Part shown: positions 3,371-12,058 of the stretch, piece after piece
Numbering within the stretch: the stretch's first letter is position 1
How the letters are laid out: every line of letters begins with the position of its first letter
Assembly: GCA_035292445.1 (NCBI GenBank)
Contig: DATDQB010000020.1
Span: 91,484-155,483 of the forward strand
Direction of reading: 5' to 3'
From: Candidatus Omnitrophota bacterium
GTDB lineage: Bacteria > Omnitrophota > Gorgyraeia > Zapsychrales > Zapsychraceae
DNA length: 64,000 nt
Translations under genes and position numbers: made by a program
The notes under the pieces: model-generated
The model's database searches: none
The model's input: the letters and a program-made list of their open reading frames with translations, nothing else
Told to the model about the DNA's origin: nothing

Positions 3371-3925
3371 TTACCTAAATACCTTTAAAGCGCTTTGTTT
3401 CTCTTTAGATTCACTCACATACTGCGTTAATTGACGCATATAGCTTGTGACCTTTTCAGCCTCTTTCTCGTCCGGAGCCCAGGGGGCAAATAGTGTTTCT
3501 TCTCGCCGAAAAGGCCCTTTGGTCGTCTCATGAAAGACCAAAAAGTCCGAATAAATCAAAAGCGTATGGTACAAAGGTCTATTTAATCGGTAATAAAAAT
3601 TTAAGTCCGATGCATAATCGCCCATCGGGATTATCTCTTGAATAACGCCTTCTTCACCAAACATAACAACATCAACCTGCCCTTCCATGACATGAAACGA
3701 TTCCGATTTTCCAAGGTGCTTGTGGGGTCGGACATAGGTGTCCTTCGTGTGAATAATCAGCATTTCATGCAACGTATCCTCCACATCCCGATGCGAACAT
3801 AAACGGATCCGTTGGCGCGGATTTCTTAAAGCCTCTTTCTTCAGGAAATCAATATCCGCGGCAGATACCCGCGTGATCTCTTCATCCGTGTAAAGAACCT
3901 CATCATTGAATTTCTTGAATTTCAT
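3371..3925 (-). CDS. cupin-fold protein (WbuC-like, possible sugar epimerase/isomerase)
   Basis: Cupin motif 1 is present as PHKHLGKSESFHVMEG (HxH-x4-E-x6-G). 184 aa, located between two C-methyltransferase genes. Confidence 0.55.
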   Translation of the reverse strand: MKFKKFNDEVLYTDEEITRVSAADIDFLKKEALRNPRQRIRLCSHRDVEDTLHEMLIIHTKDTYVRPHKHLGKSESFHVMEGQVDVVMFGEEGVIQEIIPMGDYASDLNFYYRLNRPLYHTLLIYSDFLVFHETTKGPFRREETLFAPWAPDEKEAEKVTSYMRQLTQYVSESKEKQSALKVFR

Positions 3926-5133
3926 GGCCGCGCTTCCACTGGATTTAATTGCAGGGCGTGTTTGCTTCCCGGGAAAATGGAAGCAAATGTGCCTCCCTGC
4001 TCAAGGAACGTTTGATTGAGTTTCATGACCTTTTCTTCACTCAAAGGATTCAGACTTAAAAGGCATAAATTGATTTTTTCCTTTATTAACGCTGCTGATT
4101 TATAAATAGGCAGACCACAACCGGCCATGAAAAGCCCTGTTTTGTTAGGATCGTCATCGACAAAAAATTCAATCAAGCCTCGCAGCTCGAACATGACGAC
4201 ATACGTGCAAGCCAAATGTCCTGCTCCGAAAAGGGCAATCTTTCCGGTATTTTTTCGGTAATCGCTCAAGAATTCCCTTAACTGCTTTTTGCGGACAGGA
4301 AAATTGTCGACGAACCTTTTCATGCGTAAAAATTCCGTCTGTGGAACCGATGTAAACTGATTCTTTTCTTCTCTGAGCTGACATATGCTGACCAACGAAT
4401 TTTCAAAAGGATAAGGATAATTTTCAAAACCGGCCAGGGAAAGGCCTAAATGACCGAACGTCCCTCTAAAAGTTTCAGGGGTAAAGTACAATGTATGTTC
4501 TTCCCAAAGGGTCGTGTAATCCAACAAATCAATCGCCCGCGAACAATCCGGGACTTCAAAAACGATATAGCCGTTGGGGCTTGTCAAAATTTTAAGCGCT
4601 TCCACAAATGAATTGATGTCGTACACATGCTCTAGAATATGACGCGCGATAACCACATCAAAACTTCCTTTTTTGCTTCTTATATCCCGAGCTCTCTGCG
4701 GTGTGAGCCGACCCTGAATCGTCTCGACCCCGGCCCCTTTAAAATCAATACCAAGATCATTCTTCATGTCCAAGCGGTAAATTTTTTTGTACCCTTTGTT
4801 TTCAAAACGCTGTAAGGTGGAGTCATCCTTAAAGGTAACTCCGCAAAATGTTGAACCTGTATGAATCCCGGGAAGTTTTAAAATCTTCTCCACCATGCCA
4901 TCAAGATGCGGTTCAGGCTCGTTGTACTTGATCCAGTCATAGGTTGGGACCAACTTCGGCGCCGGAACGCTTTTTGTCAGCTGAACCGTTGAGCAATGGC
5001 CGCACTGCCCCAAAGCCAGAGAGAATGTTTCTTCCTGATCATGCGCTTTCTTCTTGTAGCGATTCGAGATCGGAAAACTCCCGAAATCAATCATTTCCTT
5101 AAGCTCATTTTGGGCGCAAATACGGCAGTTCAT
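3922..5133 (-). CDS. second TylCIII-type C-methyltransferase paralog
   Basis: 403 aa. N-terminal CRIC...CGHC Zn ribbon and the same three-part architecture as 2071-3354. Its 3' end overlaps the start of the cupin gene by 4 nt. Confidence 0.6.
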   Translation of the reverse strand: MNCRICAQNELKEMIDFGSFPISNRYKKKAHDQEETFSLALGQCGHCSTVQLTKSVPAPKLVPTYDWIKYNEPEPHLDGMVEKILKLPGIHTGSTFCGVTFKDDSTLQRFENKGYKKIYRLDMKNDLGIDFKGAGVETIQGRLTPQRARDIRSKKGSFDVVIARHILEHVYDINSFVEALKILTSPNGYIVFEVPDCSRAIDLLDYTTLWEEHTLYFTPETFRGTFGHLGLSLAGFENYPYPFENSLVSICQLREEKNQFTSVPQTEFLRMKRFVDNFPVRKKQLREFLSDYRKNTGKIALFGAGHLACTYVVMFELRGLIEFFVDDDPNKTGLFMAGCGLPIYKSAALIKEKINLCLLSLNPLSEEKVMKLNQTFLEQGGTFASIFPGSKHALQLNPVEARP

Positions 5134-6011
5134 GTTTTTATCAATTCCTGTTTATGTATTTCATACATTAGACGAATACCCTCTTTCAAAGTAGTAAATG
5201 AACGATCACCAACAATTGATCTTAATCGTTCATTGTTAAAGGCGTTATCGACCTTTTCCTTGCTACGCGGCCGGGAGGTCACCTTTAATTCGCTTTGAAG
5301 CGTCCGGGAAACTTCCTTAAGAGCATCTCTGAATGAATAGCTTTTCCCGCTGGCAACATTTACCACGCCGCCGTAATCAGACGTTATGATTTTCTGAACA
5401 ATCTCGACAATGTCATCAACATAAATAAACTCCCGCAATTCGCTGCCATCGCCCCATAATGTGATTTCCTTGCCGGCGATGGCAGACTGCAAAAAGCCAC
5501 TTGGCCCATAGGCATTCGACATATCACCTGGCCCGTAAATCGTCGCCGGCCGCAAAATAACCAGCGATTTTTCGGCTGCTTTCCATAACAGCCGCTCCGA
5601 ACTGAACTTCGCCATGCCGTAATATGACCTGGGATTCACCGGCGTCTCTTCCGTGATCTGAAGGCTGTGCACATCTTCCCCATAAACCGCGGCGGAACTG
5701 AAATAAATGAACCGCTTCACCGGATTCTTTTCAAGGACACGGCAAAGATTGGTCGTCATCAGCATATTCTTTTCATACGCTTCCAAGGTATCGCCCATCT
5801 GACGTTTGATAAAAGCGCACATAATAACAGCAGTTTGACGGTCAAGGACATTGGCCAGTTGGGCAGCCTGGTCAATACGGGTCAGGTCCATCTGCGGCAA
5901 GTCGTACCCGACCACCCTTGTTTCAGAGAATCGTTGACGGAAACTCTCTTCTAAATGAGCTCCAATAAACCCACCGTTTCCTAAAATGATTATCTTTCGA
6001 ATCTCATCCAT
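5130..6011 (-). CDS. NAD(P)-dependent epimerase/dehydratase (extended SDR)
   Basis: GNGGFIG Rossmann motif and a YYGMAK catalytic Tyr/Lys pair. 293 aa. Confidence 0.75.
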   Translation of the reverse strand: MDEIRKIIILGNGGFIGAHLEESFRQRFSETRVVGYDLPQMDLTRIDQAAQLANVLDRQTAVIMCAFIKRQMGDTLEAYEKNMLMTTNLCRVLEKNPVKRFIYFSSAAVYGEDVHSLQITEETPVNPRSYYGMAKFSSERLLWKAAEKSLVILRPATIYGPGDMSNAYGPSGFLQSAIAGKEITLWGDGSELREFIYVDDIVEIVQKIITSDYGGVVNVASGKSYSFRDALKEVSRTLQSELKVTSRPRSKEKVDNAFNNERLRSIVGDRSFTTLKEGIRLMYEIHKQELIKT

Positions 6012-6014
6012 CCC

Positions 6015-7166
6015 TTAACTCTCCATGGCGATGATACACCGCCCCATTTGCCCGCTGCGCATCGTTTCAAGGGCCCGGTTGATTTCAGCTAAACGGAATT
6101 CATGGGTAATTAGGCCGTCGAGCTTTAATTTTCCTTGGCCGTACAACCGGATCAGGCGTGGAATCTCAATATGTGGGTCAACACTGCCGCCGTGCGATCC
6201 TTTTAAGATCTTCTTGAAATGCAACGGAAGCGTGTAAATCGAAACGTTATCTCCCTTTCGCGGGACGCCCACCAGAATGGTCTTCCCGTCCGCATGGGTC
6301 AACTCATAAGCCTGCTCAATGACCCTGGCATTGCCTGTTGTATCGATCACCACATCCGCCCCCTTACCGCCGACCACCTGCTGGATGCGCGCGTTCAGGT
6401 CTTTTGTTGTCTTGGCATTAAAGGTCTGGGTTGCGCCAAATTGTTTTGCCAGATCCAATTTTGAATCGTGAAGATCGATCGCAATAATCTCACCGGCTGA
6501 AACCATCTGGGCTGCCTGCACGATATTCAATCCCACGCCTCCCACCCCAAAGACAACCACTGATTGGCCGATCTTTACTTGGGCGTCGTTGTTGATGACC
6601 CCCATCGCGGTTGTCACCGCGCAGCCGAATAATGGGGCAAGCTTCAGGTCAAAATCCTTCGGGATGGCCGTAAGGCGGTTCTCCGAAACAACGGCGCGTT
6701 CATTAAAGGTCGTCACCCAGCCGGCGTTAACAGTCCTTTCCCCCCATTTGTACTTGGGCGGTTCGCACTGCAAGCCATCACTCGGCCGCCAATGCATGAC
6801 AACATGGTCGCCCACAGCGACCGTTTTGACGCCCGGTCCTACGGCTTCAACTATCCCTGAGCCTTCATGCCCCAACAGATGCGGCAGGAATTTGTCCGGC
6901 CCCTTCGCCCCTTCGATCTCATTTATTTGGGCCCCGCAGATCCCGCTATAACAGACCTTTACCAGAACTTGTCCGAAAGAAAGCTCCTTCGGCAATTCAA
7001 TGTCAGCCACCACCAGCGATTTATTCAGTTCAACCAAAATGGCTGCCCTGGTTGTCTTCACAGACTTGATATCCTGTGTCTTTAACGTTTCATTCGAAGT
7101 AGATAAACTCATAGTCCCCCGTGTAACCAAAATGTTTGTAGAGCCAGACCCATTCTTCTTTGTCAA
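6015..7166 (-). CDS. zinc-dependent alcohol dehydrogenase (MDR family)
   Basis: GHEGSGIVEAVG zinc-ADH signature and a GVGGVGL NAD-binding motif. An alternative start at Met18 (7112) would reduce the overlap with the upstream methyltransferase gene. Confidence 0.8.
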   Translation of the reverse strand: MTKKNGSGSTNILVTRGTMSLSTSNETLKTQDIKSVKTTRAAILVELNKSLVVADIELPKELSFGQVLVKVCYSGICGAQINEIEGAKGPDKFLPHLLGHEGSGIVEAVGPGVKTVAVGDHVVMHWRPSDGLQCEPPKYKWGERTVNAGWVTTFNERAVVSENRLTAIPKDFDLKLAPLFGCAVTTAMGVINNDAQVKIGQSVVVFGVGGVGLNIVQAAQMVSAGEIIAIDLHDSKLDLAKQFGATQTFNAKTTKDLNARIQQVVGGKGADVVIDTTGNARVIEQAYELTHADGKTILVGVPRKGDNVSIYTLPLHFKKILKGSHGGSVDPHIEIPRLIRLYGQGKLKLDGLITHEFRLAEINRALETMRSGQMGRCIIAMES

Positions 7167-7752
7167 AGAACGATTCGCACGTCAGGGCCCAGCACTGTAA
7201 GTTAAACAATTCTTGTTCATTTTTGTAGCTTTCCAGCATGATATATTTGTTTTTCCCGACCCGCTCGATCTCATTAATGGCTGTTTCCAATTCAAAGATG
7301 CGCAGATTATGCAAACAACCTAACGTGATCACCAGGTCAAAATGTTTGTCATCAAAAGGGTAAGGATCCTGGGCGCGGTGAATACGCAAGTACTTTCGAA
7401 TTTCTTGTGGTGCATCAGCTATGCCGTGCCTAGAGATATCAAACCCCACCACTTCTGAATCAGGCAGTAATTTCTTCAATTCAAAGAGAAGATGCGCTTT
7501 GCCGCAACCGACATCGAGAATTTTAGCGTCCGCTTTTAGGTTGTAATAATCGATAAGTTTTTGCGCGACAACACTCCATCGCCCGTCATATTTATAACCG
7601 CCATAACCATAGCGCCGGTCGCCGTCCCAGTAATCAAACTCATACTCTTTGGCCTTGAGCATGCAATGGACCTTCTCATCAACCATGCGGTCGATGTATT
7701 TGCGCGGCGTCCTTTTATGCAGCGGCGTTACAAAATCTTGTAATGAACCCAT
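7090..7752 (-). CDS. class I SAM-dependent methyltransferase
   Basis: ILDVGCGKAHLL SAM-binding motif I. 220 aa. Confidence 0.7.
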   Translation of the reverse strand: MGSLQDFVTPLHKRTPRKYIDRMVDEKVHCMLKAKEYEFDYWDGDRRYGYGGYKYDGRWSVVAQKLIDYYNLKADAKILDVGCGKAHLLFELKKLLPDSEVVGFDISRHGIADAPQEIRKYLRIHRAQDPYPFDDKHFDLVITLGCLHNLRIFELETAINEIERVGKNKYIMLESYKNEQELFNLQCWALTCESFFDKEEWVWLYKHFGYTGDYEFIYFE

Positions 7753-7785
7753 TTTTGAAAACTCCTTGTAAACTGCCTAATGAAA

Positions 7786-8447
7786 TAACCAATAACCAAG
7801 ATGCAAGGTACAAACAATAACCAATATTCCAAATTTCAATTGTATTAATTCTCCACCTTTTTAATTATCGCAGAAAGAATATTCCTAAGTTCTGCCGCTT
7901 CCTTCAATAACAATTTGATTTCAATTGATTTTTCAGAATTAGCTTCTGATATTAAATCAAGCCAATGATGACATTCTTTAGCTTCTCTACGGCTTATTCT
8001 CAACCTTTGCAAAAAATCGTTTTTTCCCAATGCATCGTTGGCCTCACGATAATTAGCTCCTACAGAACCACTAGAACCAACAACTTGACTAATTAAGCGG
8101 TCATTTATTGGTCCTCTTGGCAACACTTTACACATTCGAATAACTTCTTTTGCAAACTTAGTTGTCCGCTCTTCCAAATCAAAAATTCTTGCCATCTTAT
8201 CCTCCATTTCACACTCGACGTTTTGCATTCTCTTTGAAAAATATTTAACGTTAATTTGATGTATTTCATGAAGCCATTCAAGCTTTCTCTTAACGGGAAT
8301 TTTCATAAAGCGGAGTAATCTTTCTTCATCGGTTTCCCAACTCCATGGATTACTCATTTCAATGCTCCAATTTCAGTAATCAATTCCTGTTTGATTATTA
8401 GAAAATTGGTTATTGTTTGGTCATTGTTTCTTGTATCTTGGTTATTT
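7786..8447. mobile_element. AT-rich cassette of about 660 bp flanked by imperfect ~45-bp terminal inverted repeats, carrying a four-helix-bundle (23S rRNA IVS family) gene
   Basis: The left end at 7786-7828 reads TAACCAATAACCAAGATGCAAGGTACAAACAATAACCAATATT. The reverse complement of the right end at 8404-8447 reads ATAACCAAGATACAAGAAACAATGACCAAACAATAACCAATTTT. By eye the interior GC content is clearly lower than in the flanking sugar genes. Confidence 0.45.
7845..8195 (-). CDS. four-helix-bundle protein (23S rRNA intervening-sequence protein family)
   Basis: The C-terminal 116 aa, MARIFDLEERTTKFAKEVIRMCKVLP...GANYREANDALGKNDFLQRLRISRREAKECHHWLDLI, match the family pattern. A strong GGAGGA RBS lies 5 nt upstream of the ATG at 8195. 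The 170-aa ORF extending to 8357 is probably an untranslated upstream extension. Confidence 0.65.
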   Translation of the reverse strand: MARIFDLEERTTKFAKEVIRMCKVLPRGPINDRLISQVVGSSGSVGANYREANDALGKNDFLQRLRISRREAKECHHWLDLISEANSEKSIEIKLLLKEAAELRNILSAIIKKVEN

Positions 8448-8451
8448 ATCA

Positions 8452-9447
8452 TCATTGTTTGAACACCTCATATTCGGGCAGTTCCGCTATCGGTTTTTTC
8501 GATAAGCGAAGGTGCCGGATCGACTGAACAATTGCCTCCGGTGAAATCCCTAAATACTCCATCAGGCTGTCCTGCGATCCGTACCGGTCCGGAAAAACAT
8601 CCTGGATACCAATACGTTTAAATTTCTTGGGCTGTTCAAAGTTCGCCTCGGCAATTGCCTCGGCCACCGCGCTGCCGAGCCCGCCGATAACGTTGTGCTC
8701 CTCTACAGATATAATGATGGGGATGTCTTTGGCATGTTTAAGCAAGGCCTCCCTATCAAACGGTTTAACCGTATGCATATGCAGGATGGTGGCATCCAAC
8801 CCGTCTTCTTTGAGGTTCCCAACGGCTTCTAGAGCCAATCGTAAAGTGATTCCTGTCGTGATGATCAAGGCATCCCTTCCTTGGCCGCGAACGATGGCCT
8901 TCCCGATTTGGAAGGGCGCATCGTCATTGGTCACGATAGGATCAAATCCTTTGGCCAAACGGATGTAGATCGGCCCGGGATAATCAACCGTTTGCGGCAT
9001 GAGCCTGCGCATTTCATCGGCATCAGCAACCGCTACGATCGTCATATTAGGCACGGCGCGCAATATGGCAAGATCATCGATAGCCAAATGCGTCGGCCCT
9101 AATGGCGCATAAACAAGCCCGCCGCCATTGGCAATAAGGCGGACATTTGTCTTATGCAGCCCGGCATCCAGCACGATCTGTTCAAAACAGCGCCTGGATA
9201 AAAATGTTGCGATCGTGTTTGCGTAAACGATTTTTCCCTCCAAAGCCAAGCCGGCCGCTACGCTCACAAGGTTGGCTTCGCTCACGCCTTCGATGATAAA
9301 CCGTTCAGGCATTTCCTTCTTGAACTGTTTCAAGGTATCCACGCCAGGGTCCGAACCGATGAAAAATATGCGCTCATCTTGCTTGGCCAGTTGATATACC
9401 ATGTCTAAACATGTTTTACGCATGCGCGTACTCCTTGAGCCCTTCAA
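8452..9447 (-). CDS. transketolase, C-terminal section (pyrimidine-binding and C-terminal domains) of a split transketolase
   Basis: 331 aa with the typical length and conserved blocks of split-transketolase subunit B. Its start overlaps the end of the partner subunit. Confidence 0.85.
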   Translation of the reverse strand: MKGSRSTRMRKTCLDMVYQLAKQDERIFFIGSDPGVDTLKQFKKEMPERFIIEGVSEANLVSVAAGLALEGKIVYANTIATFLSRRCFEQIVLDAGLHKTNVRLIANGGGLVYAPLGPTHLAIDDLAILRAVPNMTIVAVADADEMRRLMPQTVDYPGPIYIRLAKGFDPIVTNDDAPFQIGKAIVRGQGRDALIITTGITLRLALEAVGNLKEDGLDATILHMHTVKPFDREALLKHAKDIPIIISVEEHNVIGGLGSAVAEAIAEANFEQPKKFKRIGIQDVFPDRYGSQDSLMEYLGISPEAIVQSIRHLRLSKKPIAELPEYEVFKQ

Positions 9448-10255
9448 GTAAACTTTCTATATCCTCATCTGAGATCTTGCTCTTATGGTGCCACTGCATA
9501 TTATGTTCGGCAATTCCGACGCCTTTTCCCTTAACGGTATGGCAAACAATGGCTGTGGGCTTGCCCGCTTCATAAGGCACATCTTTGAGGGCTTTCTTTA
9601 ATTGCGCCACGTTATGCCCGTCTACCTCACGAACACTAAATCCGAACGCTTTCCACTTATCGGCAAAAGGTTCCATATCCAGCACTTCAAACGTTGAGCC
9701 GTAAGACTGATGCTTGTTATAATCGACAATCACCGTCAAATTATCCAGCTTATGCTTTGCCGCACAAAGGGCCGCTTCCCAAACAGAACCTTCATTACAC
9801 TCCCCATCACCGACCACAACAAAGACACGATGATCGGCTTTCTCGAACTTGGCATTGATGGCCATGCCGACACCAATGGATAATCCATGCCCCAGGCTTC
9901 CCGTTGAGGCCTCCACCCCGGGCACTTTATGTTCCGGGTGCCCGCCCAAAATACCGTCGGACTTGCAAAACTTCCAAAGCTCTTCCTCGGCAATAAAACC
10001 TTTTTCCGCCAACAGGACATATAAAGCGATGCAGCCATGCCCTTTGCTTAAGATACACCGGTCCCTTTCCGGCCATTTCGGGTTTTTGGCATCATATTTT
10101 AAGATATCGTCATAAAGGACGCGCAAGATCTCAACGAGGGAAAATGATGCCCCCACATGCCCGCGCCGCCCGGCCTGCAATGTTTTGATGATCATCTCGC
10201 GCAGATGCTTTGAACGATCATCCAGCCCGATCTTACTGTCTTTGAAATCATTCAT
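9416..10255 (-). CDS. transketolase, N-terminal thiamine-diphosphate-binding section of a split transketolase
   Basis: GDGECNEGSVWEA ThDP-binding motif. 279 aa. Confidence 0.85.
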   Translation of the reverse strand: MNDFKDSKIGLDDRSKHLREMIIKTLQAGRRGHVGASFSLVEILRVLYDDILKYDAKNPKWPERDRCILSKGHGCIALYVLLAEKGFIAEEELWKFCKSDGILGGHPEHKVPGVEASTGSLGHGLSIGVGMAINAKFEKADHRVFVVVGDGECNEGSVWEAALCAAKHKLDNLTVIVDYNKHQSYGSTFEVLDMEPFADKWKAFGFSVREVDGHNVAQLKKALKDVPYEAGKPTAIVCHTVKGKGVGIAEHNMQWHHKSKISDEDIESLLEGLKEYAHA

Positions 10256-12058
10256 TTACGCCACCTTGACTTTGTTGAGCATATTCTTGGCTTTTTGCAA
10301 TTGCATGGCCAATACATCAAGCTTGTTAAGCTCATAAGCATTAGAAAAATGCCGGCGCTGCCACTCGCCCACAACAAATTCGTTAAGGAAGATCAAGCAC
10401 CACTTTAAGGCGAATAACGGATATAACGCATCGGCCCTCTCTTGCTGTTTCTTATCAAATTGAAAGGCCTTGGCAAACTCATCTCTAAAAGCCCGCTTTA
10501 GATCATCCTTGAGTTCCATCGCGGGATGAAGCTGAAAATCGGCGATGGTCTTGGCCGGATCATCCCAGCCGAAGTATTCAAAGTCCAAGAATATGATCCC
10601 CTTATCAGGCGTGCGCAAGGCATTATGAAAACCGAAATCCGAAGGGCTTAGCGTTCTTTCTTTATCCAGAAGAACGTTTTCCAATTTGCCCTCTAATCTT
10701 TTCGCAATGCCATCTAACAGCGGCCCAAACTCATTTTTCAAGAACTGCTGGCAATCCTTATAGATCTTTTCTTTCTCATCCGCATCATATAAACGCCCCA
10801 GCCTCATCCGAATATTGGCGATGATATCCTTGGCCGAGAAAAACGCCTCCGATGCCGGGGCGAAATGCCGGCTTTCATCTGCTGCCGTCAAATCCTTCAG
10901 CCGTTTCAAGAAACCGACGGCGAATTTGATATCTTTGGCCGCGATCGTTTCCGGATGAAACGCTTCTCCTTCGATATATTCATAAAGAGCAAACCCTTCT
11001 TTTTCATTCTTAGACAGCGGTTGCGGCACACAACCGATCCCGTTCTTCCTCAAAAAGTTCAAACCTTTATATTCGGTATTTAACCGGTCCCGCTGATCCT
11101 GAGGGTGCCGGAAATAAAACTTGGCGATATACTTTTCCTTTGCGCCTTTAAGGAAGAATACCTGGCTGTTGGCCCCGCCTTTGATCTCTGATACCTCTTG
11201 GATATCATCCGTCAATAGAGCTTGCGCCAGTTCTTTTACCTGCTTTGTGTCACGATGCCGTTCTAGCAGTGGAGCCCTATGGACAAAGCCTGTGGTAGCA
11301 TTTTGTTCTACCCTGCTTCGCTCCAATGTTTCCACGTTGGAGCTTCGCAGGGTTATCCGCCGCGAAAACATTTCGGGCTTTGCCCCTTGGCGAACATCCG
11401 CCGAAGCCCCGACAAGTTCGGGGCGAAGGCGGATAAAGATGTATTCATTGATCTCTCTCCATGAGCCCAAGACCTTGACATCAGCTAAATTCATTCCCTT
11501 GTCCAACGGTGAAAAAAGGACCTTTCGAACGCTTTTGGGAAAAGACGGTTCCATGAACGTCTCCTCCAGATCATCTACAAAATAACTGCACCCTAACGCC
11601 CGGATGCGCTCGATTTTTTCCTGCCTTGTCGATTCGAAATAAACCTGGGATGGATCTAAACCCAACCCGTTCTTCTCAAAGAAACGATTTTCCTTCATCC
11701 AAGCTAAAGCTGTCTTTTGAAGATCAATACCATCTTTATCCATCGAAGCAAATCGGGTCTTATGGCTGATGATGGCGAGCTTAATACCTTGCCTTTGACA
11801 TTGACCGAAAAACTCTGCCACGCCGTCCATCAGCTGGGCCTGTTCCATTCCCCTGCCATAAATATAGGCCTGTAACTTCTGCCACTTCGCCTCGCCATCT
11901 GGCAGTTGGCGTACCGCATCGCGTATCGCTTTTTTGTTTTGCCCCATCTTTTTGGGAATATACCCGTTGCCAAGGGCCGTGCTGTATAAAACCCTGTCAT
12001 AGCTGACGATCGTGTTATCGAAATCGACGCCAAGGATCATATGTTTACGATACTCCAC
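10256..12058 (-). CDS. bifunctional HAD-superfamily phosphatase (N-terminal) and APH/choline-kinase-like kinase (C-terminal)
   Basis: The N-terminus carries the HAD motif I GVDFDNTIV, later KLAIISHKT and YFVDDLEE. The C-terminus carries the kinase motifs DFGFHNAL and FLDFEYFGWDDP. The two domains are joined by a low-complexity linker (aa ~208-251) encoded by a short repeat. Confidence 0.65.
   Translation of the reverse strand: MEYRKHMILGVDFDNTIVSYDRVLYSTALGNGYIPKKMGQNKKAIRDAVRQLPDGEAKWQKLQAYIYGRGMEQAQLMDGVAEFFGQCQRQGIKLAIISHKTRFASMDKDGIDLQKTALAWMKENRFFEKNGLGLDPSQVYFESTRQEKIERIRALGCSYFVDDLEETFMEPSFPKSVRKVLFSPLDKGMNLADVKVLGSWREINEYIFIRLRPELVGASADVRQGAKPEMFSRRITLRSSNVETLERSRVEQNATTGFVHRAPLLERHRDTKQVKELAQALLTDDIQEVSEIKGGANSQVFFLKGAKEKYIAKFYFRHPQDQRDRLNTEYKGLNFLRKNGIGCVPQPLSKNEKEGFALYEYIEGEAFHPETIAAKDIKFAVGFLKRLKDLTAADESRHFAPASEAFFSAKDIIANIRMRLGRLYDADEKEKIYKDCQQFLKNEFGPLLDGIAKRLEGKLENVLLDKERTLSPSDFGFHNALRTPDKGIIFLDFEYFGWDDPAKTIADFQLHPAMELKDDLKRAFRDEFAKAFQFDKKQQERADALYPLFALKWCLIFLNEFVVGEWQRRHFSNAYELNKLDVLAMQLQKAKNMLNKVKVA
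11307..11435. repeat. repeat family 1, copy A (about 129 nt, inside a CDS, in frame)
   Basis: The core TACCCTGCTTCGCTCCAATGTTTCCACGTTGGAGCTTCGCAGGGTTATCCGC ... ATCCGCCGAAGC ... GCGAAGGCGGA is shared with 19334-19453. It contains the hairpin CCCTGC...GCAGGG. Confidence 0.6.

What the first reader, a model, noticed from the sequence alone, without database searches (positions are those of the whole stretch)
7786..8447. AT-rich inverted-repeat-flanked cassette carrying a four-helix-bundle (23S-IVS family) gene, inserted inside the sugar operon
Between the methyltransferase gene and the transketolase genes lies a segment of about 660 bp. By eye its GC content is clearly lower than that of the neighbouring genes. 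It is bounded by ~45-bp imperfect inverted repeats; the left end reads ATAACCAAGATGCAAG...CAAACAATAACCAATATT and matches the reverse complement of the right end. Its only gene is a 116-aa four-helix-bundle protein of the family first seen in 23S rRNA intervening sequences, with its own strong RBS. Members of this family are frequently found as orphan insertions in polysaccharide and O-antigen loci, but a TIR-bounded mobile unit has not been described for them. The function is unknown; a toxin/antitoxin-like or nucleic-acid-binding role is possible.
Basis: seen in the sequence. Interest (0 to 1): 0.7.

Follow-up and report, generated by a model that had tools for sequence, protein, structure and literature searches.

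The report
Heptamer-hairpin cassette carrying a four-helix-bundle gene
A 665-bp low-GC insert between two genes of a sugar operon is a copy of a widespread palindromic element built from 7-base repeats, here carrying a four-helix-bundle gene in its loop. It has the same design as the "intervening sequences" that interrupt 23S rRNA genes, but it sits in an ordinary mRNA operon.

Summary
Window 7783-7839 and 8391-8447 are 57-nt inverted arms. The 665-bp segment has the lowest GC of the whole 64-kb window. It encodes a PF05635/TIGR02436 four-helix-bundle (4HB) protein. Syntenic operons in other genomes join the transketolase and methyltransferase genes with 11-38 nt and no insert.

The arms are arrays of heptamers (NNNNCAA upstream, TTGNNNN downstream). 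The same arrays flank homologous 4HB genes in 76 of 81 unrelated loci from several phyla. In 54 cases the gene runs in the same direction as both neighbours; in 3 it opposes both. A metagenome scan with one arm found mostly ORF-less hairpins of about 130 nt. Two 97%-identical units (arms plus ORF) lie 685 kb apart in one genome between unrelated genes. Cyanobacterial 4HB genes are flanked by inverted heptamer arrays of other sequence (6 of 8). The Coxiella 23S rRNA intervening sequence also has tandem heptamers in front of its 4HB ORF, and RNase III cuts there.

Best reading: an intervening-sequence-type element carried on an mRNA operon. Processing of the arms and binding of the protein to them are inferred, not shown. 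The arms show no covariation. The claim that no inverted-repeat-bounded unit was known for this family is wrong for rRNA. The cassette also holds a second, fused 54-codon ORF.

The parts
8391..8447 (-). 5' arm in the sense of the operon. It is an array of heptamers ending in CAA: AAATAACCAA GATACAA GAAACAA TGACCAA ACAA TAACCAA and onward. It begins 3 nt after the TGA stop of the transketolase C-subunit gene.
   Evidence: Inverted repeat I1. A profile built only from ORF-less metagenome hairpins hits 8448-8397 on the minus strand with E=5.5e-11. Sequence.
7783..7839 (-). 3' arm in the sense of the operon. It is an array of heptamers starting with TTG: TTGAAAT TTGGAATA TTGGTTA TTGT TTGTACC TTGCATC TTGGTTA TTGGTTATTT. 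It ends 15 nt before the AAGGAG ribosome-binding site (7762-7767) of the methyltransferase gene.
   Evidence: Inverted repeat I1. The same arm profile hits 7791-7841 on the plus strand with E=1.3e-4, which means inverted orientation. Sequence.
8196..8357 (-). 54-codon ORF with its own GGAG ... ATG (8355-8369). It has no stop codon and is fused in frame to the 4HB ORF. It is homologous to a free-standing, uncharacterised family of proteins of about 55 aa.
   Evidence: Translation. 23 library proteins of 52-66 aa match at E<=1e-3, best 1.5e-7, 45-69% identity. No Pfam or NCBIfam match. Elsewhere this family follows a 165-aa nucleotidyltransferase (PF10706/NTP_transf_5).
8196..8205 (-). Shine-Dalgarno-like GGAGGATAAG immediately before the ATG of the 116-aa ORF.
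   Evidence: This is atypical for the family: only 7 of 75 relatives have an SD-like motif.
7845..8195 (-). Four-helix-bundle protein gene (116 aa) of the S23p / Avd-like family.
   Evidence: PF05635 E=4.4e-16. TIGR02436 76.6 bits. PDB 2RLD E=3e-11. AlphaFold2 model with pLDDT 95.6 and four helices. Foldseek matches 2RLD, 2GSC and Avd 4DWL/8UB7 with TM 0.75-0.84. 2468 relatives, most about 115 aa.
7845..8357 (-). Continuous 170-codon reading frame (small ORF plus 4HB), as called in public annotation.
   Evidence: P0001 is 100% identical, 170 aa, named 'four helix bundle protein [Candidatus Omnitrophota bacterium]'. The same gene is called on 7 contigs.
7753..8451 (-). The whole 699-nt spacer between the transketolase C-subunit gene (8452-9447) and the methyltransferase gene (7090-7752). 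It is the insertion site. In related operons this spacer is 11-38 nt.

Best explanation
The cassette is the ORF-bearing form of a palindromic 'heptamer-hairpin' element. This is the same kind of element as the ORF-containing intervening sequences (IVS) of 23S rRNA, but here it is inserted between two cistrons of an mRNA operon.

Shown here:
- It is an insertion relative to related operons.
- Its two arms belong to a large, sequence-conserved family of inverted arrays of 7-nt units (NNNNCAA / TTGNNNN).
- That family occurs far more often as ORF-less hairpins of about 130 nt than with a gene.
- 4HB genes of this subfamily almost always sit in the loop of such a hairpin, in the same direction as the host genes, between the upstream stop codon and the downstream ribosome-binding site.
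- Arms plus ORF are copied as one unit.
- The protein is under purifying selection.
- The arms keep their heptamer consensus although synonymous sites are saturated.

Inferred:
- The element has no promoter or terminator of its own and is transcribed with the operon.
- The A/C-rich 5' arm and the G/U-rich 3' arm pair into a long imperfect stem (about -41 kcal/mol). A double-strand-specific RNase cuts this stem, RNase III in the rRNA relatives. The flanking cistrons stay usable and the 4HB message is released.
- The 4HB protein is a pentameric ring in solved relatives and an RNA- and RT-binding scaffold in Avd. It probably binds the periodic CAA/UUG triplets of the arms and serves the element's maintenance or spread. 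The ORF-less hairpins would be its satellites.
- How the DNA copy moves is unknown. No target-site duplication and no known transposase were found.
For: Insertion: tktC and the methyltransferase gene are adjacent with 11-38 nt in L096, L097 and L098, against 699 nt here.

Family arms: the same arm sequence flanks homologues behind an FG-GAP gene (L006) and behind hisG (L010). In 76 of 81 loci the inverted-repeat score exceeds all shuffles. CAA-to-CAA spacing is 7 nt in 256 of 358 steps. A single 4-nt step closes at the fifth CAA from the outer end in 62 of 100 arms. A profile built from ORF-less hairpins hits the window only at the two arms.

ORF-less forms: of 82 metagenome arm hits, 45 are hairpins with a loop of 60 nt or less and 1 carries a 4HB gene.

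Orientation: 54 loci are co-directional with both neighbours and 3 are antisense to both, p=4e-13. No promoter-like or terminator-like site lies on the gene strand.

Unit mobility: L077 and L089 are 97-99% identical from the outer end of one arm to the outer end of the other, and their flanking genes are unrelated.

Fold: the minimum-free-energy and centroid structures pair the two arms, z=-3.96. The arm duplex is -41.1 kcal/mol against about -18 for shuffled arms.

Selection: pN 0.30 against pS 0.80.

rRNA relatives: the Coxiella IVS has terminal inverted repeats and three to four tandem heptamers (GACAGAT) directly upstream of the S23p ATG. RNase III cuts at the first repeat, and the IVS GC is 36% against 42.5% for the genome (PMC4990558). 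23S_rRNA_IVP ORFs also occur in CPR rRNA insertions (PMC11270868).

Generality: inverted heptamer arrays of other sequence flank 4HB genes in 6 of 8 cultured strains checked: Nostoc, Anabaena, Planktothrix, Dolichospermum and Aulosira.

Protein: fold of S23p and Avd. Xcc0516 is a homopentameric toroid (PMC4990558).
Against: - Evolution gives no proof of RNA pairing. The arms of one locus fit each other hardly better than arms of different loci (Smith-Waterman 39.6 against 37.1; duplex -38.3 against -35.6 kcal/mol, p=0.13). The own partner is the best partner in only 4 of 50 loci. Sense and antisense duplexes are equally stable, so G-U pairs give no strand signal.
- RNase III cleavage and binding of the protein to the arms were not tested.
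- The window copy is atypical. About 160 extra nucleotides (a fused foreign small ORF) and a strong SD lie between the 5' arm and the 4HB ATG.
- There is only one copy in 64 kb, and all 7 contigs of this species carry it, so no strain-level polymorphism was seen.
- No target-site duplication was found.
- Lone arms without a partner also occur upstream of ordinary genes. This suits a host leader or regulatory role as well.
- The authors of the Coxiella paper consider that its S23p is probably not expressed.
Confidence: 0.55

Rival explanations
1. The hairpin belongs to the host and the gene is a guest or a trans-acting factor. On this view, heptamer-array hairpins are ordinary regulatory or stabilising structures of these genomes. 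They would act like E. coli REP elements or cyanobacterial STRR hairpins, setting mRNA stability, processing or translational coupling between cistrons. The 4HB gene either tends to land in hairpin loops or encodes the host protein that reads them. Nothing is selfish or mobile as a unit.
For: ORF-less hairpins greatly outnumber ORF-bearing ones. 24 of 29 hairpins lie between co-directional genes, tightly packed against stop and start codons. Lone arms sit in front of ordinary genes. The arms keep their consensus although synonymous sites are saturated, which argues for function rather than decay. STRR hairpins between hupS and hupL have been proposed to stabilise transcripts or couple translation (PMC2670836).
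Against: In L077 and L089 the arms and the ORF were copied together, and identity ends exactly at the outer ends of the arms. Related operons work without any hairpin at this junction. The window has no other hairpin in 64 kb. Nearly identical arms occur in different phyla. The cassette has a foreign base composition.
Confidence: 0.2
2. It is a non-autonomous DNA transposon (MITE-like) whose terminal inverted repeats are recognised by a transposase encoded elsewhere. The 4HB gene is a passenger with an unrelated cellular role.
For: Terminal inverted repeats shared by ORF-less and ORF-bearing copies. Low GC. A copy at a second site in one genome. The ratio of many short to few long copies is typical of MITE families.
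Against: No target-site duplication. No transposase lies in or next to any of about 80 units. A random passenger would not be the same gene in nearly all loaded copies, nor oriented 54 to 3 with the host genes. The arms are tandem arrays with variable unit order and number, which is not the usual structure of a transposase-binding end.
Confidence: 0.15
3. It is an orphan piece of a diversity-generating retroelement: an Avd accessory gene left behind after loss of the reverse transcriptase and the template repeat.
For: The fold matches Avd (4DWL, 8UB7; TM about 0.75). PF05635 is the most common family next to DGR reverse transcriptases (PMC10053308).
Against: There is no reverse transcriptase or template/variable repeat pair within 6 kb on either side: all neighbours are sugar-pathway enzymes. 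The same holds in the other contexts examined. Sequence identity to Avd is 13%. The closest solved relatives are the non-DGR proteins 2RLD and 2GSC.
Confidence: 0.02
4. It is a toxin-antitoxin or anti-phage defence cassette: the small upstream ORF plus the 4HB gene form a two-gene module.
For: There are two small adjacent ORFs. Relatives of the small ORF follow a nucleotidyltransferase of the kind found in some toxin-antitoxin pairs. 4HB genes are found inside cas, DISARM and restriction-modification loci (PMC3936711).
Against: No PADLOC match. The small ORF occurs only in this lineage's copy: no other held locus has it. It has lost its own stop codon and C-terminus. Typical units carry the 4HB gene alone. 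Presence inside defence loci is expected for any element that inserts between co-directional genes.
Confidence: 0.05

Closest known systems
ORF-containing intervening sequences (IVS) of 23S rRNA genes (Leptospira, Coxiella burnetii, Brucella; also in CPR 16S/23S rRNA)
   Same: Both consist of an S23p/4HB ORF of about 115-120 aa enclosed by terminal inverted repeats that fold into a stem. Both have tandem 7-nt repeats directly in front of the ORF, with copy-number variation (GACAGAT in Coxiella; NNNNCAA here, with a one-unit indel between L077 and L089). Both have lower GC than the host, are transcribed as part of a host transcript in the sense orientation, have a sporadic distribution that suggests horizontal transfer, and have ORF-less shorter forms (PMC4990558, PMC11270868).
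   Different: The location is an intergenic spacer of a protein-coding operon, not helix 9, 25 or 45 of 23S rRNA. The heptamer sequence differs. The arms are long imperfect arrays of about 57 nt rather than a nearly perfect 28-bp stem. RNase III excision is not shown here.
Cyanobacterial STRR (short tandemly repeated repetitive) heptamer sequences and the hairpins they form, for example between hupS and hupL
   Same: Both are tandem 7-nt units in intergenic spacers of operons that can fold into hairpins, and both have unknown function (PMC2670836, PMC4692102). In 6 of 8 cultured strains checked here, inverted heptamer arrays bracket a 4HB gene.
   Different: The unit sequences differ (AATTCAA, TAATTCG, AATCCCC/AATCGTA, AAGTAAA against TAACCAA/GATACAA/GAAACAA). 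In the papers I could search, STRRs have not been linked to 4HB genes. The host here is an uncultured Omnitrophota bacterium.
REP/REPIN elements with their RAYT gene (REPtrons)
   Same: Many short palindromic intergenic copies, plus a few copies in which two inverted repeats flank a single gene (PMC3116915 for REPINs, listed). The comparison with REPtrons is from my own knowledge.
   Different: The flanked gene is a four-helix bundle with no HUH/Y1 transposase motifs. The repeats are arrays of heptamers. No mobilisation has been shown.
Avd, the accessory protein of diversity-generating retroelements
   Same: Same four-helix-bundle fold (TM about 0.75). Avd is a pentamer that holds the RT and the RNA in the solved ribonucleoprotein (8UB7, entry title).
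   Different: No RT and no template or variable repeat are present. Identity is only 13%. The conserved motifs differ.

Membership tests
PF05635 / TIGR02436 four-helix-bundle (S23p, '23S rRNA intervening sequence protein') family | Scores above the curated cut-offs of the family models | tested here: met
   PF05635 scores 59.5 bits against a cut-off of 33.8. TIGR02436 scores 76.6 against 24.
PF05635 / TIGR02436 four-helix-bundle (S23p, '23S rRNA intervening sequence protein') family | Up-and-down four-helix bundle superposable on solved members (2RLD, 2GSC) | tested here: met
   The AlphaFold2 model has pLDDT 95.6 with helices at 7-23, 29-53, 58-85 and 87-115. Foldseek TM is 0.80 to 2RLD and 0.83 to 2GSC.
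PF05635 / TIGR02436 four-helix-bundle (S23p, '23S rRNA intervening sequence protein') family | Homopentameric ring | not tested
   2RLD has five chains, and Xcc0516 is reported as a homopentamer (PMC4990558). No multimer model was made for this protein.
rRNA intervening sequence (IVS) with ORF | Inserted in a 23S (or 16S) rRNA gene, replacing a helix loop | tested here: not met
   It lies between the transketolase C-subunit gene and the methyltransferase gene. There is no rRNA in the region or in 18 related loci.
rRNA intervening sequence (IVS) with ORF | Terminal inverted repeats that enclose an S23p ORF and pair in the transcript | tested here: met
   57-nt arms. The arms pair in the minimum-free-energy and centroid folds, z=-3.96.
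rRNA intervening sequence (IVS) with ORF | Tandem heptamer repeats in the 5' part, upstream of the ORF (Coxiella type) | tested here: met
   7-nt spacing of CAA in the window arm and in 256 of 358 steps across the family. The unit sequence differs.
rRNA intervening sequence (IVS) with ORF | Excision from the transcript by RNase III | not testable with these tools
   Needs RNA mapping or an in vitro cleavage assay.
MITE / IS-type DNA transposon | Target-site duplication at the ends | tested here: not met
   No direct repeat beyond the shuffled expectation at 43 ORF-less hairpins, and none at the L077/L089 junctions or in the window. The ends were defined only approximately.
MITE / IS-type DNA transposon | Transposase inside the autonomous copy | tested here: not met
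   The only conserved cargo is the 4HB gene, which has no transposase family hit.
REP/RAYT (REPtron) | The flanked gene is an HUH/Y1 (IS200/IS605-like) transposase | tested here: not met
   The Pfam and NCBIfam hits are only to 4HB families, and the fold search gives S23p and Avd.
REP/RAYT (REPtron) | Many ORF-less palindromic copies in intergenic regions, plus gene copies flanked by inverted repeats | tested here: met
Diversity-generating retroelement | Reverse transcriptase and a template/variable repeat pair next to the Avd gene | tested here: not met
   The neighbours within 6 kb are sugar-pathway enzymes only.
Cyanobacterial STRR heptamer repeats | Tandem 7-nt units in intergenic DNA, able to form hairpins | tested here: met
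   Cyanobacterial 4HB genes are bracketed by such arrays. The unit sequences and the host phylum differ, so this is a resemblance of architecture, not of sequence family.
Known anti-phage defence or toxin-antitoxin systems | Match to a defence-system protein model | tested here: not met
   PADLOC gives no family at E<=0.1.

The most novel reading that the evidence does not exclude
Four-helix-bundle (S23p/Avd-like) pentamers are the sequence-specific partners of heptamer-repeat hairpins. Together they would form a previously unrecognised class of self-propagating element: ORF-bearing 'master' copies plus many ORF-less satellites. The element would live inside host transcripts, both rRNA and mRNA. 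One mechanism would then explain the classical 23S rRNA intervening sequences, the 4HB genes scattered in operons (including cas and restriction loci), and the cyanobacterial STRR heptamer repeats, which have gone unexplained since their first description.
Probability: 0.25. Interest if true: 0.85.

Novelty: new variant of a known kind. Interest (0 to 1): 0.7.

Why it matters
The S23p/4HB family has thousands of members and solved structures but no known function outside DGRs. rRNA intervening sequences and cyanobacterial heptamer repeats (STRR) are both long-standing puzzles. This cassette and its relatives tie the three together through one architecture: an inverted heptamer array, a 4HB ORF, and a second inverted heptamer array, with abundant ORF-less hairpins.

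The architecture is conserved from Omnitrophota and CPR bacteria to cultured Nostoc, Planktothrix and Dolichospermum. That makes the question directly testable: does the pentamer bind the periodic triplets, does RNase III cut the arms, and does the unit move?

There is also a practical point for annotation. These 'four helix bundle protein' genes and their arms are insertions inside operons, not members of the pathways that surround them.

Tried and rejected
1. Other copies in the window. AATAACCAA matches at 552, 39967 and 56746 lie inside ordinary coding sequence. The arm profile finds only the two arms.
2. Covariation as proof of an RNA stem. Own-locus against cross-locus arm pairing and sense against antisense duplex energies show no signal. 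I therefore did not build a covariance model.
3. Rfam. No family covers the arms. There is no rRNA in 18 related loci, only a tmRNA and tRNAs.
4. Phage carriage. A 17-nt arm word gave only chance hits inside coding sequence in 2.9 million viral contigs. The hairpin consensus has no match in the phage or plasmid collections, though BLAST's low-complexity filter may hide matches.
5. Strain-level empty site. Every contig with the identical methyltransferase carries the cassette.
6. Target-site duplications. None found.
7. HEPN-like RNase idea, from the motif RREAKExxH. The His is Tyr in 2RLD, and no HEPN structure is among the fold matches, so I dropped it.
8. DGR remnant and defence system. Rejected on gene content and PADLOC.
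9. The three identical Nostoc flagelliforme copies lie in larger duplicated plasmid segments and say nothing about mobility.
10. The small upstream ORF has no Pfam or NCBIfam family and no other copy in any held locus.
11. Arms on the same contig are not significantly more alike than arms on different contigs (0.68 against 0.56, p=0.15, n=13).
12. Literature searches with arm sequence strings found no paper. Searches on family names found no paper describing this module outside rRNA.
Full report
**1. What is in the window**

All genes from 3922 to 12058 are on the minus strand. They form a sugar-modification operon: a kinase/HAD fusion, the transketolase N and C subunits, a methyltransferase, a zinc alcohol dehydrogenase, an epimerase and C-methyltransferases. 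The stop codon of the transketolase C-subunit gene is at 8452-8454. The start of the methyltransferase gene is at 7752. A 699-nt spacer lies between them.

The spacer contains two 57-nt arms, 7783-7839 and 8391-8447, which are 77% complementary without gaps. The segment 7783-8447 has 33.5% GC against 45.2% for the window. That is the lowest of all 1267 sliding windows of the same size.

Inside the arms, on the strand of the operon, lies an ORF of 116 codons (7845-8195) preceded by GGAGGATAAG. It matches PF05635 at 59.5 bits (cut-off 33.8) and TIGR02436 at 76.6 bits (cut-off 24). An AlphaFold2 model (pLDDT 95.6) is a four-helix bundle. It superposes on BT_0352 (2RLD), Xcc0516 (2GSC) and the DGR protein Avd (4DWL, 8UB7) with TM 0.75-0.84.

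Two details need amending. First, the arms are arrays of 7-nt units, not plain repeats. Second, the frame stays open upstream to 8357. These extra 54 codons have their own GGAG...ATG. They are 45-69% identical to a family of free-standing proteins of 52-66 aa with no Pfam or NCBIfam model. Elsewhere that family follows a 165-aa nucleotidyltransferase. In this lineage the small ORF has lost its stop codon and C-terminus and is fused to the 4HB gene. No other held locus has it.

**2. It is an insertion**

The closest relatives of the methyltransferase (81-84% identity) sit in syntenic operons. There the transketolase C-subunit gene is followed by the methyltransferase gene after 38, 11 and 14 nt, with no cassette (L096, L097, L098). 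All seven contigs that carry the identical methyltransferase or 4HB protein have the cassette, so I found no strain-level polymorphism.

**3. The arms are a family feature**

The source is an uncultured Omnitrophota bacterium. The 4HB protein has 2468 relatives in the large protein collection. The nearest are 68-79% identical and about 115 aa long.

Two of them lie in unrelated contexts, one behind a 1528-aa FG-GAP protein gene and one behind hisG. Both are flanked by the same sequences as in the window: AAATAACCAAGATACAAGAAACAATAACCAAA... upstream and the complement downstream.

I then took 80 loci from species-representative genomes labelled Omnitrophota, Patescibacteria, Planctomycetota, Dehalococcoidia and others. 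In 76 of 81 loci with enough flank, the best inverted repeat between the two flanks beat every shuffle.

The upstream arm is (NNNNCAA)n and the downstream arm is (TTGNNNN)n. The spacing between successive CAA triplets is 7 nt in 256 of 358 steps and 4 nt in 55. The commonest units are TAACCAA, GATACAA and GAAACAA. In 62 of 100 arms the single 4-nt step closes at the fifth CAA counted from the outer end, so each arm has a conserved outer block of five triplets.

The arms usually start a few nucleotides after the upstream stop codon and end just before the downstream ribosome-binding site. In most relatives the 5' arm runs up to the ATG, and only 7 of 75 have an SD-like motif. The window copy, with its extra small ORF and strong SD, is the exception.

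**4. Orientation**

In 54 loci the 4HB gene points the same way as both neighbours. In 3 it opposes both (binomial p=4e-13). No promoter-like or terminator-like site lies on the gene strand in 7600-8600. The unit therefore appears to depend on read-through transcription of the host genes. This is an inference.

**5. ORF-less forms dominate**

Within the same loci there are hairpins made of a CAA array, a loop of 10-25 nt and a TTG array, with no gene.

I scanned the metagenome collection with a 24-nt arm word. Of 82 arm hits:
- 45 are hairpins with a loop of 60 nt or less.
- 17 have a gap of 61-250 nt.
- 19 have no partner arm.
- 1 has a 4HB gene in the loop.

The hairpins are about 130 nt long and share a consensus well beyond the searched word. 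They fold with a mean of -46 kcal/mol. Where both neighbours could be called, 24 of 29 lie between co-directional genes.

A profile built only from these ORF-less arms finds exactly two places in the 64-kb window, the two arms of the cassette, in inverted orientation (E=5.5e-11 and 1.3e-4). A recurrent variant is 5' arm, then 4HB gene, then a complete hairpin (L006, L051, L080, L068, L113, L129, L180).

**6. The unit is copied as a whole**

Two copies lie about 685 kb apart on one Moraniibacteriota contig (L077, L089). They are 97-99% identical from the outer end of the 5' arm to the outer end of the 3' arm and unrelated beyond. The flanking proteins show no similarity. The only indel is one repeat unit in the 5' arm.

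No target-site duplication is visible there, in the window, or at 43 ORF-less hairpins.

**7. Selection**

Among 91 pairs of 115-codon genes, the proportion of differences is 0.80 at synonymous sites, which is saturated, and 0.30 at non-synonymous sites. The protein is therefore maintained by selection.

The arms keep the same heptamers although neutral sites between the same copies are randomised. The arms must then be constrained, or homogenised, for their sequence.

That constraint is not locus-specific pairing. The two arms of one locus fit each other barely better than arms taken from different loci (Smith-Waterman 39.6 against 37.1; duplex energy -38.3 against -35.6 kcal/mol, p=0.13; shuffled -18.2). 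Sense and antisense duplexes are equally stable. The stem is predicted (the arms pair in the minimum-free-energy and centroid folds, z=-3.96), but compensatory change does not support it.

**8. Comparison with what is known**

The family is named after ORFs inside 23S rRNA intervening sequences. The Coxiella paper (PMC4990558) describes a 428-nt element with terminal inverted repeats that form a 28-bp stem. RNase III cuts that stem in vitro. The element's GC is 36% against 42.5% for the genome. Directly upstream of the S23p start codon are three tandem heptamers (GACAGAT) plus a degenerate fourth. Their number varies between strains, and the 5' RNase III cut falls at the first repeat. The paper also recalls the 1993 proposal that the Leptospira IVS is a mobile element whose ORF serves its mobility.

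The design of the window cassette is thus already on record for rRNA. What differs is the location (an mRNA operon), the heptamer sequence, and the long imperfect arms.

Three other reports are relevant:
- 23S_rRNA_IVP ORFs have been noted in CPR rRNA insertions (PMC11270868).
- They have been noted between cas genes, such as cmr3 and cmr2 (PMC3936711).
- Heptamer repeats that form hairpins in cyanobacterial operons (STRR, for example between hupS and hupL) are known and unexplained (PMC2670836, PMC4692102).

I checked eight 4HB genes on plasmids of cultured strains. In six of them inverted arrays of tandem heptamers bracket the gene:
- Nostoc flagelliforme and Aulosira laxa: AATTCAA.
- Nostoc sp. 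C052 and Dolichospermum: TAATTCG.
- Planktothrix: AATCCCC and AATCGTA.
- Anabaena cylindrica: AAGTAAA.

Several of these repeats are perfect over 30-36 bp. Bernardetia and Pseudanabaena have direct repeats instead.

I found no paper that links 4HB genes to heptamer hairpins outside rRNA, or that contains the arm sequences. The searchable library is incomplete, so this is absence of evidence.

**9. Mechanism**

Shown:
- It is an insertion.
- The arms belong to a conserved family.
- ORF-less and ORF-bearing forms exist.
- The gene is in the sense orientation.
- The unit is copied as a whole.
- The protein is under purifying selection.
- The arms are constrained.

Inferred from the rRNA relatives and the predicted fold:
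- The element is co-transcribed with the operon.
- The arms pair and are cut by a double-strand-specific RNase.

Inferred from the pentameric ring of solved relatives, from Avd's role as an RNA and RT scaffold, and from the five-triplet blocks:
- The protein binds the periodic triplets of the arms. The comparison with ring proteins that read spaced triplets, such as TRAP and HutP, is from my own knowledge.

The way the DNA copy spreads is unknown.

The main rival is that the hairpins are host regulatory structures and the gene is a guest or their reader. The abundance of ORF-less hairpins, the lone arms in front of ordinary genes and the constraint on arm sequence all suit it. The joint copying of arms and ORF and the empty sites argue against it.

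**10. Verdict**

The finding is real. The 'mobile cassette' reading is largely right. The novelty claim needs rewording: this is a non-rRNA variant of the IVS type of element. It belongs to a large and apparently undescribed family of heptamer hairpins, and the family may connect IVSs, scattered 4HB genes and STRR repeats.

Caveats:
- Taxon labels come from metagenome bins.
- Start codons of relatives were assigned by rule.
- Array detection used simple patterns.
- The metagenome scan used one arm variant and was capped.
- No experiment stands behind the RNA or protein steps.

Noticed in passing
window 8196-8357 (minus strand): A 54-codon ORF is fused in frame to the 4HB gene. It belongs to an uncharacterised family of free-standing proteins of about 55 aa (consensus W-E-T-E-E-E-R-L-x-R-F-M-K-I-P-x-K-K-K-L-E-W-L). 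In other contigs the family overlaps the end of a 165-aa nucleotidyltransferase gene (PF10706/NTP_transf_5) upstream of lptE. That arrangement may be a two-gene module.
   Followed up: partly
L130 2120-2179 (+) and 8000-8056 (-): Two arm-type arrays in inverted orientation lie 5.8 kb apart and bracket five co-directional genes. They could be two lone arms, or an operon-sized 'loop'.
   Followed up: no
L171 788-1896; also L133, L141, L165, L174: Lone CAA arrays without a TTG partner sit directly in front of ordinary genes, and L171 has four in the same orientation within 1.1 kb. The A/C-rich array may act on its own as a leader sequence.
   Followed up: no
L028 4001-4345 and 4454-4881: One 4HB unit sits immediately upstream of the tmRNA gene, so the units also land next to non-coding RNA genes.
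   Followed up: no
L236 (Anabaena cylindrica pANACY.01), L238 (Planktothrix p1), L244 (Pseudanabaena): 4HB genes lie between cas2 and cas1 (on the opposite strand), between the DISARM gene drmD and an MmeI-type enzyme gene, and next to cas1. This matches an earlier report of this family inside cas loci.
   Followed up: partly
L012 9874-10137 compared with L011: An 87-aa GIY-YIG gene is present between spoVG and a nucleotidyltransferase gene in some near-identical contigs and absent in another. This is a second small insertion polymorphism in these genomes.
   Followed up: no
L239 (Bernardetia plasmid) and L244 (Pseudanabaena plasmid): Here the 4HB gene is flanked by direct rather than inverted short repeats. 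In Pseudanabaena the repeats are tandem units of about 37 nt.
   Followed up: no
window 3922-12058: The host operon combines a split transketolase, a kinase/HAD fusion, two C-methyltransferases with zinc-ribbon domains, DUF6016, an aminotransferase and epimerases. The same core recurs at 75-85% protein identity in bins of several phyla, which suggests a widely exchanged pathway for a branched or methylated sugar.
   Followed up: no
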